A stretch of 64,000 nt of DNA from assembly GCF_003790525.1 (NCBI RefSeq), contig NZ_CP033635.1, one strand, 5' to 3'. Shown one piece after another: positions 20,397-28,881 of the stretch. Within the stretch, counting starts at the first letter, position 1. Every line of letters begins with the position of its first letter. A program made the translations under genes and the position numbers. Below the pieces are notes generated by a model. The model was not told the DNA's origin, did not search any database, and saw only the letters and a list, made by a program, of their open reading frames with translations. Origin of the DNA: Escherichia coli (GTDB lineage Bacteria; Pseudomonadota; Gammaproteobacteria; Enterobacterales; Enterobacteriaceae).

Positions 20397-22221
<1,825 letters not shown>

Positions 22222-22591
22222 AGATTAGAAATCCTTTTGAAAGCGCATTGTTATGAGTTTACGCATATGGATTCATCTGGCAAATAAAAACGCGGGAAAA
22301 GCACTGGTCAGCGTCGGGGGGGGGGGTATAATGACCATTCTGTTATTGCATAGAGTAGTTAACATGAAGCGGAGTAGAACGGAAGTGGGGCGCTGGCGCA
22401 TGCAGCGTCAGGCTAGCCGACGTAAATCGCGTTGGCTTGAGGGGCAGTCGCGCCGAAATATGCGTATCCACAGCATCAGGAAGTGCATTCTAAACAAACA
22501 GCGTAACTCGTTATTGTTTGCGATCTACAATATCTAAATGTACTGGGCACCATTGCGGTGCCCAATAAGTTTACTCTTCCGTCTTTAAAGT

Positions 22592-23845
22592 CTATTTTTG
22601 CGCTGATTCTTTATTGTCAGCTTTCGTTTCTTGTTCATCGTTATCGCTGAAAATACCATGACCGGAGTTCAACAACATTGAAACGAGCATATCATTATTA
22701 ATCTCTTCACCATTTAAAACTCGTGCCAGAATTTCGCTGCCAAACAGTTGCGGCGAGAGAATGATATCCGGATGTACCATCTTAATCTTATTCAGGTTTT
22801 TGCTATCACTGACGGCGAGAACTGTTTTGACATCACTGCTCATATCTTTTGCCGAGAGTACAACAAACGCGTTATCTGCATCGTTATCACTCAGCGCCAG
22901 AATGGCCCGGCATCGATCGATTCCTGCTTTCTTTAATACTGAACTGTCATTACTGTCACCGGGGATAACATCAGCGTTATCACCTAAGCGTTGCTCAAGT
23001 TGCTTGATATCATCTTCAGGCAAGTTGCTGATAACCGTTACATTTTGTCCGCGTTGATTCAGTTGCAGAATCGTATTGATGGCGAGAATCGAATGTCCGC
23101 AAACAATAAAATGATCTTTACGATGCATTGTATGATTGTTTCCTTTTACAAGTTTGTTGAATCCCCCGCGGATAAGCGGGCCAAAAATTGAAGTCATGGA
23201 GGTGGCAAAAACGGTAATGCCGGAAATAATGACCGAAATAGTGAACAATCGTGCTGATTCAGAAACAGGGACAATATCGCCGTAGCCGACGGTTGACATG
23301 GTTTCTATCGAAAAATAGAACGCGGTCATCAAACTTTCTATTCGCGGATTAAAACCTTCGCTTAAATAAAGCGCACCGTAGGTGGAGTAAAACAGTAACG
23401 TCGTGAAACTAATAAATGCGAAAATTGTCCCGGCTGCGGCGCTACTGTGGGAGAAGTCTTTGCGCAGTATCAGCAAAAACACCAGCGTAAAAATGCAAAA
23501 TCCAATACTAAATTTCAGCCAGGGATAAAAATGCAGGGTGTAAATTAGCGCTATCAACAACAAAATGATACTGATTGCCCATGCGAGCTTTGCCCGGAAC
23601 AGTAAGCCAATGGAGTTCAGGACAAGAAAGACGCCGAGCATAAATAGAGGGGCGTTTGCCAGCAAGGAGAGATCCAACTCTGAAAATGCTTTGATATGGA
23701 AAATATCTAGCAAATTGACCGACATACCATAGATTGTTTTAAAAATAAGCAATCCATTTAAAAAGACGGCCAGCGCGAGAATGTCGTGCCGTAGGGTCAC
23801 CCATAAATTAGTTGCTGTTTGTTTGAATGTAGCCCAGTGACTCAC
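22592..23845 (-). CDS. kch: voltage-gated potassium channel Kch
   Basis: TM helices, selectivity filter TVGYGD, C-terminal RCK/TrkA-like domain; start placed at GTG giving MSHWATF (417 aa). Confidence 0.88.
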   Translation of the reverse strand: MSHWATFKQTATNLWVTLRHDILALAVFLNGLLIFKTIYGMSVNLLDIFHIKAFSELDLSLLANAPLFMLGVFLVLNSIGLLFRAKLAWAISIILLLIALIYTLHFYPWLKFSIGFCIFTLVFLLILRKDFSHSSAAAGTIFAFISFTTLLFYSTYGALYLSEGFNPRIESLMTAFYFSIETMSTVGYGDIVPVSESARLFTISVIISGITVFATSMTSIFGPLIRGGFNKLVKGNNHTMHRKDHFIVCGHSILAINTILQLNQRGQNVTVISNLPEDDIKQLEQRLGDNADVIPGDSNDSSVLKKAGIDRCRAILALSDNDADNAFVVLSAKDMSSDVKTVLAVSDSKNLNKIKMVHPDIILSPQLFGSEILARVLNGEEINNDMLVSMLLNSGHGIFSDNDEQETKADNKESAQK

Positions 23846-24348
23846 TGATACCTCTGTAACCACAATTTTGTTTAATTATCTCAACGTGCACATTTTCTGA
23901 ACATACATGCAGCGCGTGAATGTGTTAAACAATAGTAGATGACTTTATCCGCAGTAATCAAAGGTTTTGAGTGAGCAACTCTGCGTCAGGAAAGGGCATT
24001 TTCCTGAATATGTTCACATCATATAAAGAAATACAGATAAAGTTATTATCTGCTTGTGGTGGTGAATGCACTGACCGACCTATAAGGAAAGGCCAAACAA
24101 GAACACGGTTGCAAAAACCGTGCCCTTAAATATTGAATTTCTATTCAGAACACTTTCTTAAAATGTCATTCAGACCATTTCGAAGAATTTCGCATAAAAA
24201 CGTTCTGTTACGTTGAACCCTTACGCCATCTGCCTTTCAGCCCCTAAGCCATCACACTTCGAGTACAAGTGTTACATTGCGGGTATCTTTGAGCAACGAG
24301 TTTTGTGTACACTTTTGCGTACTCGCAAGCCAGATGTGTACACATTCA

Positions 24349-25407
<1,059 letters not shown>

Positions 25408-25408
25408 A

Positions 25409-25828
25409 TCAGGGAATATTCAGGTAGCAAACGCAAGCTCAGGAACCACATGGAGCTTTATGAAATCAACTGGTAACGCTGTAGCGCCTGGAGCATGGGT
25501 TCCGAATTCAGATGGCCGCCTGAAAGATGGAGTGTCCAGAATTGGAGACCCGCTCAGTAAGATGGAAATGCTAAAAGGTTGTTCCTGGACGCGAAAAGAT
25601 ACCGGACAATGGGGGATTGGGTTTATCGCGCAGGATGTTAAGAAAATCTTCCCCCAGGCAGTAACTGAGGGAGGTGATCGTCAACTTCCTGATGGAACTA
25701 TGGTGGAAGGAGTACTCTCTCCAGATACTTACGGCGTTGCGGCAGCGTTGCATCATGAAGCGATTCTGGCACTAATGAACGAACTCAGTGAATTACGAGA
25801 AGAAGTGAATGCGCTGAAAAGTGAGTAA
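25409..25828 (+). pseudogene. phage tail fibre/tailspike C-terminal fragment (intramolecular chaperone-like domain)
   Basis: translation ...NSDGRLKDGVSRIGDPLSKMEMLKGCSWTRKD...ELSELREEVNALKSE resembles the self-cleaving chaperone C-terminus of tail fibres; no N-terminal part, starts at the IS boundary. Confidence 0.45.
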
Positions 25829-25916
25829 GGGAATCATTCTTATAATCTGGAAGCCGCAACCACGCCGGATTGTACTTAATCAGTGTGACGGTTCAAGGCG
25901 TTTAATCTGAAAACAG

Positions 25917-26144
25917 CTACATATCAGTCTCTTCAAACATTTCCTGAACAGTACGGCTTATCTGTTCATTCTCATGCTTGTTGGCGTCAGTGTTGATCGC
26001 CGGCAATGTCATCATCGGTTTAACCCGGACATCAGCGCCGGGGAAAATCCGGTGAACCCTCTTGGTCAACTCGCCCAGAATGATATCTTTTGCACCGGGC
26101 AGTCCATCAAAATTCCTTTTGCCATAAACGAGTTCCACGAACAT
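25917..26144 (-). CDS. DinI-family (damage-inducible protein I / MsgA-like) protein
   Basis: 75 aa, MFVELVYGKRNFDGLPGAKDIILGELTKRVHRIFPGADVRVKP... matches DinI family pattern. Confidence 0.65.
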   Translation of the reverse strand: MFVELVYGKRNFDGLPGAKDIILGELTKRVHRIFPGADVRVKPMMTLPAINTDANKHENEQISRTVQEMFEETDM

Positions 26145-26219
26145 TGCTCATTGCCTCTTTACTGGGTGTATATACAGTATTTATACTGTGTTTTTATCCG
26201 GTATTCAAGAGAGGGCGTA

Positions 26220-26573
26220 ATGATGCCACGACGCAGCGATATTGAAATAGCCTGGTATTCTTCGATACAGCAAGAGCCGAATGGCCGGAAGACCGTCACT
26301 ACACAGCGATTTGTTCAGGGGTTGAGCAAAGTTAACTGGGAATTCTCACTCAAAGATGCTAATGCCTGGATCGAATCCAGCGTGAGCACTTTTAAATATT
26401 TATCAATGGTAGAGGGGGAAGAACGCACTTTCATGCTCTATAGCCTTGATTTATGCGATGCACATTTCCACAACCTAGTCAGGACAACCTCTTTTCTAAT
26501 AAAATGTAGATGCCTAATTTTAGGCGTCTACATAATTAATGATGATTTATTACAATTATTTTCTAGATACTAA
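26220..26573 (+). CDS. hypothetical protein
   Basis: ATG at 26220 with gagaggg RBS upstream; earlier part of the listed ORF is antisense to the DinI-like gene; 3' end runs into AT-rich DNA. Confidence 0.3.
   Translation: MMPRRSDIEIAWYSSIQQEPNGRKTVTTQRFVQGLSKVNWEFSLKDANAWIESSVSTFKYLSMVEGEERTFMLYSLDLCDAHFHNLVRTTSFLIKCRCLILGVYIINDDLLQLFSRY
26504..26533 (-). terminator. hairpin terminator downstream of the sulfatase-like gene
   Basis: 12-bp inverted repeat atgtagatgcct-aatttt-aggcgtctacat, T-rich flank on minus strand. Confidence 0.5.
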
Positions 26574-28363
26574 TCGTGAAATAATGACATTGAATAAATC
26601 CACGACGGGGTCATGTTAATTAACTTATCATAATTAAAGTTATCACTGTTTTCACAGACATGCTTTGCGTTGTGATTAAATGATACCAATCCAGATTGAA
26701 TGAAATGTTTATCAACTAATGAAGATACACAGAAAAAAGGTTTTCCATTGGCGTCGGTTATGAATTTTTTAATGGCGTCTTTATCATTTGATTTAATAAG
26801 TACAGGAACATCACCAAAATCGAGTGGGGTTGTGCTCATTTTAAAGACGAAATCTTCATCTTTTTCTTCTCCGATTTTGTTGAAAATATTACTTGGTAGC
26901 ACCCCATTTTCGACGAAATATTTATTTAGTGGTGGTTTATGGTCACCGTAAAAGACGATTACAGCATTTGGATCTATTTTTTCTACTTGCTGTGAAAATT
27001 GAACGAATCTTTTGACTGCCTCATTAATCTCATAGGTATAAACACCTTCACCATAATCATTAATGTGTTGATAAGGACCATGAGTTGACATAGTGATCAA
27101 ATGTACAAAAATATCTTTGTTTCCTGCATTTTGGATGGCTTTTAATGCTGCATTGTAAAGCAGGTAGTCATCAGGTTGCCACTGCCATGGTTTTTTAATA
27201 CTGCTATACTCTGGTGGTAAATCTCCCATATTAATAATGCTATCAAATCTATCAAATCCAAATTTAGGGTAAATTTTATTCCTATACCAAAAGTCTGCTT
27301 GGTAATTATGTGCTGCGAAAGTAATATAGCCTTTGTTTTTCAGGGCATTAGGTAATGCGTCAACTTTTGGTTTGAATGCATCTGAATATTCTTGATAGAT
27401 GATTCCTGATATTTTATCTGAATTACTTGGTAGTCCTGTCAGCATTTCAAATTCGGCATTTGCGGTACCTCCACCGTAAACTGGTGAGATGGCCCGTAAT
27501 TCACTGTAACCTTCATCAATAACAGGTTTGAAATTTTCTCGGAAGTTTTTTTTATCATACCAACATGATTCACATAAAACATAAATAATGGTTTTATTTT
27601 TTATATGAGTGGATACTAAAGATCTTTTTTCATCTAAATATCTTAATTGTTCTGCATCAGTTGCATGTGGTACAGATTTTCTGACACTTGTTTGTATTAT
27701 ATGCATTGGCAAGCCATTAACGCCAATATTTTGAGACCAATTCCAGTAAATATATTTTATATTTAAGTTGTTCGCGCTGGAGTTTATGATTTCAGAAATC
27801 CTATTGTTAGGGCTAAAAATGGTTCCAATATAGGGGTAGAATGAAAAGGGGATCGTAATGATAATTAAAAGAAATAACGATATATAATTTTTTCTTGTTG
27901 TGACCGTTTTTTTGCTAAGTAGGATTGAGATTATTGCGCCAATTAGAATAGCGACAGAGTAAGTAATGGATGATAAGTTGAGGTATTTTCCTGCGACACT
28001 CAAATTGAATCCAGAAACAATGTCATTAAATGATAAAGGCTCACCGGTTAACGCCATTTTAGTACTGTTCACAAACATCAATGTTATAATTGCGATGCCT
28101 GATAAATAAGAACATAGAAAAATTGGAATGTTTATTATTCTAAATAACAAATAAATAAACAAAATGGGGGATGAACGCCAGATGAAATTCAATATTGCAC
28201 CAATTAACTCTTTAGGCGGTTCAATATTTCCTATGATAACTATTGACTGATTTAGAAAACAAAATAAGTACAATAAAAACATAACGTTGACAATGTCGAA
28301 AACATATGATTTCAACTTTAAGTTTTTATATCTTGTAACGACTTTGCTCAAACCGATACTCAT
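26570..28363 (-). CDS. sulfatase/LTA-synthase-like membrane protein (alkaline phosphatase superfamily; possible phosphoglycerol or phosphoethanolamine transferase)
   Basis: 597 aa; N-terminal multi-TM region, C-terminal domain with metal-site-like motifs HLITMSTHGPYQ and VIVFYGDHKPP; visibly AT-rich compared with flanks. Confidence 0.7.
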   Translation of the reverse strand: MSIGLSKVVTRYKNLKLKSYVFDIVNVMFLLYLFCFLNQSIVIIGNIEPPKELIGAILNFIWRSSPILFIYLLFRIINIPIFLCSYLSGIAIITLMFVNSTKMALTGEPLSFNDIVSGFNLSVAGKYLNLSSITYSVAILIGAIISILLSKKTVTTRKNYISLFLLIIITIPFSFYPYIGTIFSPNNRISEIINSSANNLNIKYIYWNWSQNIGVNGLPMHIIQTSVRKSVPHATDAEQLRYLDEKRSLVSTHIKNKTIIYVLCESCWYDKKNFRENFKPVIDEGYSELRAISPVYGGGTANAEFEMLTGLPSNSDKISGIIYQEYSDAFKPKVDALPNALKNKGYITFAAHNYQADFWYRNKIYPKFGFDRFDSIINMGDLPPEYSSIKKPWQWQPDDYLLYNAALKAIQNAGNKDIFVHLITMSTHGPYQHINDYGEGVYTYEINEAVKRFVQFSQQVEKIDPNAVIVFYGDHKPPLNKYFVENGVLPSNIFNKIGEEKDEDFVFKMSTTPLDFGDVPVLIKSNDKDAIKKFITDANGKPFFCVSSLVDKHFIQSGLVSFNHNAKHVCENSDNFNYDKLINMTPSWIYSMSLFHD

Positions 28364-28471
28364 ATTAATGCTCTATCTCTAGAATAATGAACTTTTATGC
28401 AGAATATCACAAAATGACATTTTGGTTAAATAAATCATGGTAGTCTCTCTTACTAATCATGAGTTTAAAAT

Positions 28472-28729
28472 CTAATTAGTAGAGTATCTAATCTGTCTTT
28501 GGTATGTGTAAAAATCCAGGTTTATCCCACCATCCGGGGCGTATCCCCAGAAAACTGGATCAAGATGGAGTTTCTCGTCACGTTCGCTCAGAAGCAGAAC
28601 TTTGGTGCCTGGCGCAACGTTGAAACGTCCGATCGGTTCAGGGTCATATGGAATGTCTTGCTCGACTTCATCTGCGAGAAGGGCGAGATAGTCTTCACGC
28701 GTCATTGACTGTGAAAAGCGTCCGCACAT
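28472..28729 (-). pseudogene. SOS-response-associated peptidase (SRAP/YedK-like), truncated
   Basis: begins MCGRF (Cys2 nucleophile hallmark) but is only 85 aa, far shorter than an intact family member; C-terminus diverges next to the AT-rich insert. Confidence 0.55.
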
Positions 28730-28881
28730 AGAAACCTCCAGCCAGATGTCAGACTGAAAGTATAAGTCGTAGCGAAAAAAAAGGGGCGCTTAGATTAATG
28801 TGTACTTAAATGCGCCCTTTATTATTGATTATGTTGACTGTCTTTCGTTATTGCTTTGAATTTAAATAATATTTAATTTAT

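What the first reader, a model, noticed from the sequence alone, without database searches (positions are those of the whole stretch)
22316..22332. G11 homopolymer abutting a TATAAT hexamer upstream of cls
An 11-nt G run (22316-22326) is immediately followed by TATAAT in the cls upstream / kch downstream intergenic region. Homopolymer tracts of this length are prone to slipped-strand changes and can modulate a neighbouring promoter; it could also be a sequencing or assembly artefact.
Basis: seen in the sequence. Interest (0 to 1): 0.25.

Follow-up and report, generated by a model that had tools for sequence, protein, structure and literature searches.

The report
Slippery G-run inside the yciY promoter
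The 11-G run sits between the two recognition boxes of the promoter of the tiny gene yciY (not cls); a single base change created it in about 1% of E. coli genomes, and it then varies from 10 to 13 Gs, a modest and so far untested example of a mutation-prone promoter.

Summary
In detail: G11 at 22316-22326 abuts TATAAT at 22327-22332.

The interpretation needs changing. A published K-12 start-site map places the yciY start at window 22339, 7 nt downstream of the TATAAT. cls has its own mapped promoter, with its start at 22248 on the minus strand.

The TATAAT is identical in 80 of 80 Enterobacteriaceae species, and the -35-like box lies at an invariant 16-nt spacing.

Most E. coli carry G5-T-G5 (2375 genomes) or G5-C-G5 (1482). 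The window has G at that middle base (promoter position -18), which fuses the two runs. The fused run occurs in 72 of about 5420 complete genomes, on at least 7 local haplotypes:
- G10: 5 genomes
- G11: 59
- G12: 7
- G13: 1

Off-length alleles are about 170 times more frequent than in interrupted tracts. In the window's own clone the tract is often the only difference across 20 kb.

The run is therefore real and length-variable, and it should change the promoter spacer from 15 to 18 nt. Some variants may be assembly errors, no expression data exist, and nothing suggests an evolved switch. Interest is low to moderate.

The parts
22316..22326 (+). G11 homopolymer. It forms positions -23 to -13 of the yciY promoter, the downstream 11 nt of the 16-nt spacer.
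   Evidence: Sequence. Position relative to the mapped start. Length variants G10 to G13.
22321..22321 (+). Polymorphic base at promoter position -18. It is G in the window, T in 2375 genomes and C in 1482 genomes. The G allele fuses two G5 runs.
   Evidence: The preference T>A>C>G at -18 is from PMC3130263. Across 80 species this base is A 59%, T 24%, C 11% and G 6%.
22327..22332 (+). TATAAT, the -10 hexamer of the yciY promoter (-12 to -7).
   Evidence: scan. Mapped start 7 nt downstream. Identical in 80 of 80 Enterobacteriaceae species representatives.
22305..22310 (+). TGGTCA, the -35-like hexamer (4 of 6 matches), 16 nt upstream of the -10.
   Evidence: The C-TGGTC block stays conserved in a gapless alignment anchored on TATAAT, so the spacing is invariant across 80 species.
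22297..22300 (+). AAAA block just upstream of the -35 (promoter -42 to -39), almost invariant across species. Possibly an UP-element-like or regulator contact (inference).
   Evidence: A in 86-100% of 80 species at these four positions.
22339..22339 (+). Transcription start of yciY, transferred from the K-12 map. The 5' UTR is 25 nt.
   Evidence: Kim et al. 2012, PMC3415461, supplementary file 2: start at 1306787 (+), 27 reads, assigned to b4595 yciY. Coordinate transfer uses the yciY ATG at 22364.
22364..22537 (+). yciY, a 57-aa basic protein of unknown function.
   Evidence: RefSeq annotation of identical loci. NCBIfam NF033701 YciY family, E = 5e-32. Translation shown by Venus fusion and ribosome profiling in PMC4909307.
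22248..22283 (-). Proximal cls (clsA) promoter: -35 TTGCCA at 22283-22278, -10 TAAACT at 22261-22256, start at 22248. It diverges back to back from the yciY promoter.
   Evidence: scan. Kim et al. 2012 start at 1306696 (-), 6 reads, 27-nt UTR, with matching upstream sequence.
22477..22477 (-). Weak distal cls start, antisense within yciY. A transcript from here would carry the tract as C11 in a 256-nt leader.
   Evidence: Kim et al. 2012 start at 1306925 (-), only 3 reads.
20761..22221 (-). cls (clsA), cardiolipin synthase.
   Evidence: ORF. Annotation.

Best explanation
The G11 run is the downstream part of the 16-nt spacer of the sigma-70 promoter of the small gene yciY. The TATAAT beside it is that promoter's -10 box and points away from cls.

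The usual E. coli spacer reads G5-T-G5 or G5-C-G5. In the window's lineage a single change to G at promoter position -18 fused the two G5 runs into one run of 11. The same change occurred separately on several other haplotypes.

A run of that length slips during replication, so close relatives carry 10, 12 or 13 Gs.

Because the run lies between the -35 and -10 boxes, each gain or loss changes the spacer (15, 16, 17 or 18 nt). That should raise or lower yciY transcription. G at -18 is itself the least favoured base for sigma-70.

The run is most likely an incidental mutational hot spot in a conserved promoter, not an evolved on/off switch.

Status of each step:
- Shown: promoter identity, allele history and length polymorphism.
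- Inferred: that the length differences are biological rather than assembly errors, and that they change expression.
For: Promoter identity:
- The scan gives TGGTCA-16-TATAAT on the + strand, 10 of 12 matches.
- The K-12 start-site map places a 27-read start for yciY at the base equivalent to window 22339, 7 nt after the TATAAT.
- cls has its own mapped start and promoter.
- TATAAT is identical in 80 of 80 species, and the -35-like block stays conserved in a gapless alignment, so the spacer is fixed at 16 nt.

Allele history:
- MG1655 and most strains carry G5TG5. Exact counts are T 2375, C 1482 and G11 59.
- The 7 closest island-bearing relatives outside the G-run clade carry G5CG5.
- E. albertii also carries G5CG5.
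- The run occurs on at least 7 local haplotypes. One of them is 1 SNP from MG1655 over 3.9 kb.

Instability:
- Counts are G10 5, G12 7, G13 1 and G9 0.
- Interrupted tracts have only four 10-nt alleles and no G6TG5 or G5TG6.
- Off-length alleles are 13 of 72 against 4 of 3861, Fisher p = 2e-20.
- In the window's clone, XDL, XH992, E22 and TUM1586 have 0 SNPs in 20 kb. The tract is their only small indel.
- PM22 (G12) and BEC1 (G10) have identical 3.9-kb flanks.

Literature:
- The preference T>A>C>G at -18 is from PMC3130263.
- The indel rate rises exponentially with run length in E. coli, and 8-bp G·C runs are already outliers in K-12 (PMC8510543).
Against: - No expression measurement exists for any G-run allele. 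The mapped start comes from K-12, which carries G5TG5.
- Long G runs are hard for every sequencing platform. Two of the five G10 assemblies (LS45, CS5L) carry other 1-bp deletions and 'frameshifted' genes nearby, so part of the length spectrum may be error.
- Reads and sequencing platforms were not available.
- The -35 match is only 4 of 6. The conserved block could also be a regulator site.
- The metagenome scan found no uninterrupted run among 16 contigs, so there is no independent short-read confirmation.
Confidence: 0.72

Rival explanations
1. The tract is a stable G11, and the G10, G12 and G13 versions are consensus errors of long-read or hybrid assemblies at a difficult homopolymer. On this reading there is a fixed point-mutant promoter but no real length polymorphism.
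For: - LS45 (G10) has three other 1-bp deletions in 20 kb, with cls, yciY and ompW annotated as frameshifted.
- CS5L (G10) has one other 1-bp deletion and a frameshifted IS3 gene.
- Homopolymers of 10 or more are known error sites for sequencing platforms (general knowledge).
Against: - Six variant assemblies show the tract as the only small indel in 20 kb.
- The separately deposited XDL and XH992 records (different BioProjects, judged from their accession and locus-tag prefixes) both give G12.
- E2 and MSI001 both give G12 on the K-12-like haplotype. PM22 and ZH177 both give G12.
- An A8 and a T8 run in the same 20 kb show no indel in those assemblies.
- A systematic error specific to G11 cannot be excluded without reads.
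Confidence: 0.25
2. The run is an evolved contingency locus. On this reading, selection repeatedly created and maintains a slippery spacer so that populations switch yciY expression reversibly, as in the porA, opc and fetA promoters of Neisseria.
For: - The tract lies between -35 and -10, as in porA, opc and fetA (PMC2791445).
- It arose on at least 7 haplotypes.
- Both gains and losses occur within a clone that has 0-3 SNPs per 20 kb.
Against: - Only about 1.3% of complete genomes carry it.
- The ancestral and dominant states are interrupted.
- Spacer length is invariant at 16 nt across 80 species, which argues for purifying selection on spacing.
- Recurrent origin is also expected from misalignment mutagenesis at a base flanked by two G5 runs (inference from established knowledge).
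- YciY is not known to be a surface or antigenic protein.
- E. coli has active mismatch repair.
Confidence: 0.07
3. The tract and the TATAAT act on cls. This would work either through a bidirectional -10 or by altering upstream contacts of the cls promoter.
For: - The tract is 95 bp upstream of the cls start codon.
- The minus-strand reading CATTAT (complement of 22328-22333) matches 4 of 6 positions of a -10.
- A weak distal cls start at 22477 would transcribe through the tract.
Against: - The mapped proximal cls start is at 22248, with its own -35 and -10. The tract lies at -68 to -78, outside the core promoter and the UP-element zone.
- No usable -35 exists for the minus-strand CATTAT (my reading: ACTCTA, 1 of 6 matches).
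- No minus-strand start is recorded near 22320 in the K-12 map.
- The distal start has only 3 reads.
Confidence: 0.05

Closest known systems
Neisseria meningitidis porA (poly-G), opc and fetA (poly-C) promoter tracts
   Same: A G/C homopolymer of about 9-15 nt lies between the -35 and -10 boxes. Slippage changes the spacer length and hence promoter strength (PMC2791445). Here the tract occupies the same place, and lengths of 10-13 nt give spacers of 15-18 nt.
   Different: In Neisseria the tract is a fixed, species-wide feature of surface-antigen genes, and switching has been measured. Here it is a rare derived allele (about 1.3% of genomes) of a conserved promoter in a mismatch-repair-proficient species. 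It drives a cytoplasmic-looking 57-aa protein of unknown function, and no expression or switching data exist.
Haemophilus influenzae hifA/hifB divergent fimbrial promoters (TA repeats)
   Same: A variable repeat lies within a shared region between two divergently transcribed genes (cited in PMC2791445). Here yciY and cls diverge, with starts 91 bp apart.
   Different: In hif the repeat lies in the overlapping spacers of both promoters and controls both genes. Here the tract is in the yciY spacer only, well upstream of the cls core promoter.
Spacer position -18 effect on sigma-70 promoters (Singh, Typas, Hengge and Grainger 2011)
   Same: The base that differs between the common alleles and the window is exactly -18 relative to the mapped start. 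That study reports T>A>C>G, and a 3-fold drop for T>G at gapA P1.
   Different: The effect depends on the promoter and has not been measured for yciY. Here the substitution has a second consequence, creation of a long homopolymer.
Run-length-dependent indel hot spots in E. coli (for example the 8-bp G·C runs in leu tRNA genes)
   Same: Indel rate rises exponentially with run length, and mononucleotide runs are hot spots (PMC8510543). The 11-bp run behaves as expected, with an off-length frequency about 170 times that of the interrupted tract.
   Different: Those data come from laboratory mutation-accumulation lines. Here the evidence is natural polymorphism among assemblies, and the run is longer than any noted in K-12.

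Membership tests
Sigma-70 promoter (of yciY) | -10 hexamer close to TATAAT on the strand of the gene | tested here: met
   TATAAT matches 6 of 6 on the + strand. Conserved in 80 of 80 species.
Sigma-70 promoter (of yciY) | -35-like hexamer 16-18 nt upstream | tested here: met
   TGGTCA matches 4 of 6 with a 16-nt spacer. The block and its spacing are conserved across 80 species.
Sigma-70 promoter (of yciY) | Experimentally mapped transcription start about 7 nt downstream of the -10 | tested here: met
   Kim et al. 2012 supplementary table: start at the base equivalent to window 22339, 27 reads. Measured in K-12 (G5TG5), not in a G11 strain.
Homopolymer or SSR promoter phase variation (porA/opc/fetA type) | Repeat tract located between the -35 and -10 elements | tested here: met
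   The tract spans -23 to -13.
Homopolymer or SSR promoter phase variation (porA/opc/fetA type) | Tract length differs among closely related isolates | tested here: met
   G10 to G13 within a clone that has 0-3 SNPs per 20 kb. Caveat: two assemblies are visibly error-prone and no reads were seen.
Homopolymer or SSR promoter phase variation (porA/opc/fetA type) | High-frequency reversible switching within a culture | not testable with these tools
   Needs colony or amplicon sequencing, or reporter sectoring.
Homopolymer or SSR promoter phase variation (porA/opc/fetA type) | Expression level depends on tract length | not testable with these tools
   Inferred only, from spacer lengths of 15-18 nt against the conserved 16 nt.
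Homopolymer or SSR promoter phase variation (porA/opc/fetA type) | Tract is a maintained, species-wide feature of the locus | tested here: not met
   72 of about 5420 genomes carry the run. The dominant alleles are interrupted. The longest G run in the spacers of 80 species is 7.
Sequencing or assembly artefact | Feature confined to one assembly and absent from independent sequences of the same lineage | tested here: not met
   The exact G11 with 40-nt flanks occurs in 59 complete genomes, 15 of them in the window's own lineage.
cls (clsA) promoter element | -10 oriented towards cls, with a cls start just downstream | tested here: not met
   The TATAAT is on the opposite strand. The cls starts map to 22248 and 22477.

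The most novel reading that the evidence does not exclude
E. coli, usually regarded as lacking repeat-based contingency loci, has repeatedly evolved a genuine one. On this reading the fused G-run in the yciY promoter spacer switches yciY expression heritably and reversibly among spacer lengths of 15-18 nt. Its recurrence on at least 7 haplotypes would reflect selection in particular hosts (many carriers are pig, poultry and ST354-like human isolates) rather than mutation pressure alone.
Probability: 0.08. Interest if true: 0.55.

Novelty: new member of a known kind. Interest (0 to 1): 0.3.

Why it matters
If the length changes are real and alter expression, this is a natural example in E. coli of how one point mutation can turn a deeply conserved, fixed-spacing promoter into a hypermutable one. 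It would show the first step towards a contingency locus, caught as a polymorphism.

It also offers a ready-made allelic series (T, C or G at -18; spacers of 15-18 nt) for probing the unknown function of YciY.

On the practical side, it marks a site where assemblies of one clone disagree. Such a site should be masked or checked in SNP and indel typing.

The stakes are modest, because yciY has no known phenotype.

Tried and rejected
Start-site data sought elsewhere:
- The Cappable-seq supplement is stored truncated and does not reach this region.
- The Thomason 2015 dRNA-seq paper is not held.
- The Conway 2014 supplements are not held.
- Only Kim 2012 gave usable data.

Other searches:
- The only substantive paper found on yciY is a translation-start study.
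- A metagenome scan with a variable gap returned only 16 contigs, all with interrupted 11-nt tracts. It gave no independent view of G-run lengths.
- Rfam shows nothing at the site. A sub-threshold CRISPR-DR35 hit inside kch is chance.

Readings considered and rejected:
- A bidirectional -10 serving cls. There is no minus-strand -35, and cls has mapped starts elsewhere.
- A G-quadruplex. There is only one G run, or two in the common alleles, not four.
- A transcribed slippery run affecting a reading frame. The tract lies upstream of the yciY start and outside every ORF of note.

Limits of the census:
- About 1490 genomes whose flanks differ from the window by SNPs (for example the B2-type A-G4-C-G5 allele) are outside the exact-match counts.

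Full report
**Observation**

The window reads ...GGTCAGCGTC-GGGGGGGGGGG-TATAATGACC... with the G run at 22316-22326 and TATAAT at 22327-22332. It is the only homopolymer above 8 nt in 64 kb. About 0.017 G runs of 11 or more would be expected by chance.

**Context**

The window is E. coli. The gene order is oppF, yciU, cls (20761-22221, minus), yciY (22364-22537, plus) and kch (22592-23845, minus). Identical loci are annotated this way in RefSeq.

The 57-aa product matches NCBIfam NF033701 'YciY family' with E = 5e-32. Its translation was confirmed in K-12 by ribosome profiling and a Venus fusion (PMC4909307).

**Which promoter**

The consensus scan finds TGGTCA (22305-22310), a 16-nt spacer and TATAAT on the + strand, 10 of 12 matches. 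It also finds a separate minus-strand site, TTGCCA-16-TAAACT at 22283-22256.

The start-site table of Kim et al. 2012 (PMC3415461, supplementary file 2) gives three relevant entries for MG1655:
- A + strand start with 27 reads assigned to yciY, with a 25-nt leader. Its upstream sequence ends ...GGGGGTGGGGGTATAATGACCATT.
- A cls start with 6 reads and a 27-nt leader. Its upstream sequence contains TTGCCA...TAAACT.
- A weak distal cls start with 3 reads.

Using the yciY ATG as the tie point, these map to window 22339 (+), 22248 (-) and 22477 (-).

So the TATAAT spans -12 to -7 of the yciY promoter, and the G run spans -23 to -13. Relative to the proximal cls promoter the tract lies at -68 to -78. 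The two promoters are back to back, with starts 91 bp apart.

**Conservation**

A scan of one genome per species found yciY relatives in 162 stretches, of which 80 were kept. Findings from these 80:
- All 80 have TATAAT 35-39 nt before the ATG.
- When the sequences are stacked without gaps on that hexamer, AAAA and C-TGGTC remain 75-100% conserved. The -35-like box is therefore always 16 nt from the -10.
- A GGG block at -17 to -15 is 78-89% conserved.
- The base at -18 is A 59%, T 24%, C 11% and G 6%.
- The longest G run in any spacer is 7.

This is a deeply conserved promoter with fixed spacing.

**Origin of the run**

MG1655 and most strains read GGGGGTGGGGG. The window differs only by G at 22321, which is position -18.

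Exact-match counts with 40-nt flanks among 5426 complete genomes:

| Allele | Genomes |
|---|---|
| G5TG5 | 2375 |
| G5CG5 | 1482 |
| G11 | 59 |
| G12 | 7 |
| G10 | 5 |
| G13 | 1 |
| G9 | 0 |
| G14 | none seen |

Genomes whose flanks carry SNPs, such as the B2-type A-G4-C-G5 allele, fall outside these counts.

E. albertii has G5CG5.

The window carries a 5-kb island between kch and yciI that only 30 genomes share. Of those 30:
- 7 have G5CG5.
- 23 have an uninterrupted run: G10 in 4, G11 in 15, G12 in 3 and G13 in 1.

In this lineage the run therefore arose by C to G.

Over 3.9 kb of flanks, the uninterrupted run sits on at least 7 haplotypes that differ by 5 SNPs or more. One of them is 1 SNP from MG1655: NT1F10 has G11, and E2 and MSI001 have G12. 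Recurrent origin is the simplest reading. A base flanked by two G5 runs is a plausible target for misalignment mutagenesis, but that is an inference.

**Instability**

Comparison of off-length alleles (p values are Fisher exact tests):

| Measure | Uninterrupted run | Interrupted tract | p |
|---|---|---|---|
| Any off-length allele | 13 of 72 (18%) | 4 of 3861 | 2e-20 |
| +1 or +2 alleles | 8 of 72 | 0 of 2375 (G6TG5, G5TG6) | 4e-13 |

The four interrupted off-length alleles are 10-nt tracts, for example G4TG5 in strain 2013C-4361.

Within the window's clone, compared with the window over 20 kb:
- XDL and XH992 (G12) and E22 and TUM1586 (G10) have 0 SNPs.
- CM2 (G12) has 3 SNPs and 23CRST013 (G13) has 2.
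- In all six, the tract is the only small indel.

PM22 (G12) and BEC1 (G10) have identical flanks.

This agrees with the literature. Indel rates in E. coli rise exponentially with run length, and 8-bp G·C runs are already outliers in K-12 (PMC8510543).

**Caveat**

LS45 and CS5L (both G10) carry other 1-bp deletions and 'frameshifted' cls, yciY, ompW or IS3 annotations. They are typical of unpolished long-read assemblies.

A G run of 10 or more is difficult for all platforms, and I had no reads or platform metadata. Some of the spectrum may therefore be error. The agreement of separate assemblies on the same non-modal length argues that not all of it is.

**Likely consequence (inferred)**

G at -18 is the least favoured base for sigma-70. 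The reported order is T>A>C>G, and T>G at gapA P1 costs 3-fold (PMC3130263). The G11 allele probably weakens the promoter.

Length changes give spacers of 15 (G10), 16 (G11), 17 (G12) or 18 (G13) nt, against a spacing held at 16 in 80 species. That is the mechanism by which the porA, opc and fetA homopolymers modulate expression in Neisseria (PMC2791445).

An effect on cls is unlikely, because the tract is outside its core promoter.

**Verdict**

The feature is real, and the idea of slippage in a promoter is broadly right. However, the gene is yciY, and the run is a rare derived allele rather than a designed switch.

It works like the Neisseria spacer tracts but fails one membership criterion: it is not a maintained, species-wide tract. 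Two other criteria, switching within a culture and length-dependent expression, could not be tested.

I file it as a new member of a known kind, with low to moderate interest.

Noticed in passing
window about 23900-28800: A 5-kb island lies between kch and yciI. It holds an Arm-type integrase fragment, an IS3-family transposase, a tail-fibre fragment, a DinI-like gene, an LTA synthase family gene and a frameshifted SOS-response peptidase. Only 30 of 5426 complete genomes have it, including SMS-3-5. Some relatives carry an extra IS or a group II intron (ltrA) inside it.
   Followed up: partly
L003 (strain Rb-3) 386-420, equivalent to window 22305-22326: One genome has a 6-bp duplication (GTCAGC) at the -35/spacer junction of the yciY promoter, plus A-G4-C-G5. 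The duplication moves TGGTCA 6 nt away but places GCGTCA (3 of 6 matches) at the 16-nt position. It is the only record in the 90-95% identity band.
   Followed up: partly
window 22297-22326 and loci L041-L120: Across 80 Enterobacteriaceae species the yciY upstream region keeps AAAA, GCGCTGGTC and a GGG block at -17 to -15 nearly invariant. The mean spacer G+C is 69%. The reason for the conserved G-rich block and A-tract is unexplained; a regulator site, UP element or sigma contact are possibilities.
   Followed up: partly
window 22477 (minus strand), inside yciY: The K-12 start-site map lists a weak distal cls start (3 reads) antisense to yciY, giving a 256-nt cls leader that overlaps the yciY promoter and 5' end. 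cls and yciY transcription may therefore interfere with each other.
   Followed up: no
L014 (LS45) and L015 (CS5L), whole 20-kb loci: These RefSeq 'complete' assemblies carry scattered 1-bp deletions relative to otherwise identical relatives. The result is 'frameshifted' annotations of cls, yciY, ompW and an IS3 transposase. These are probably assembly errors rather than pseudogenes.
   Followed up: yes
window 22321; loci L125, L018-L024: Promoter position -18 is tri-allelic in E. coli (T, C, G). B2-type strains additionally have A at the first tract base and a G at window 22345. Four genomes have a 10-nt interrupted tract, for example G4TG5 in 2013C-4361.
   Followed up: yes
window 22649-22684 (minus strand), inside kch: A sub-threshold Rfam hit to CRISPR-DR35 (23.3 bits against a gathering score of 35, E = 0.066). 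It is a single copy inside a coding region, so almost certainly chance.
   Followed up: no
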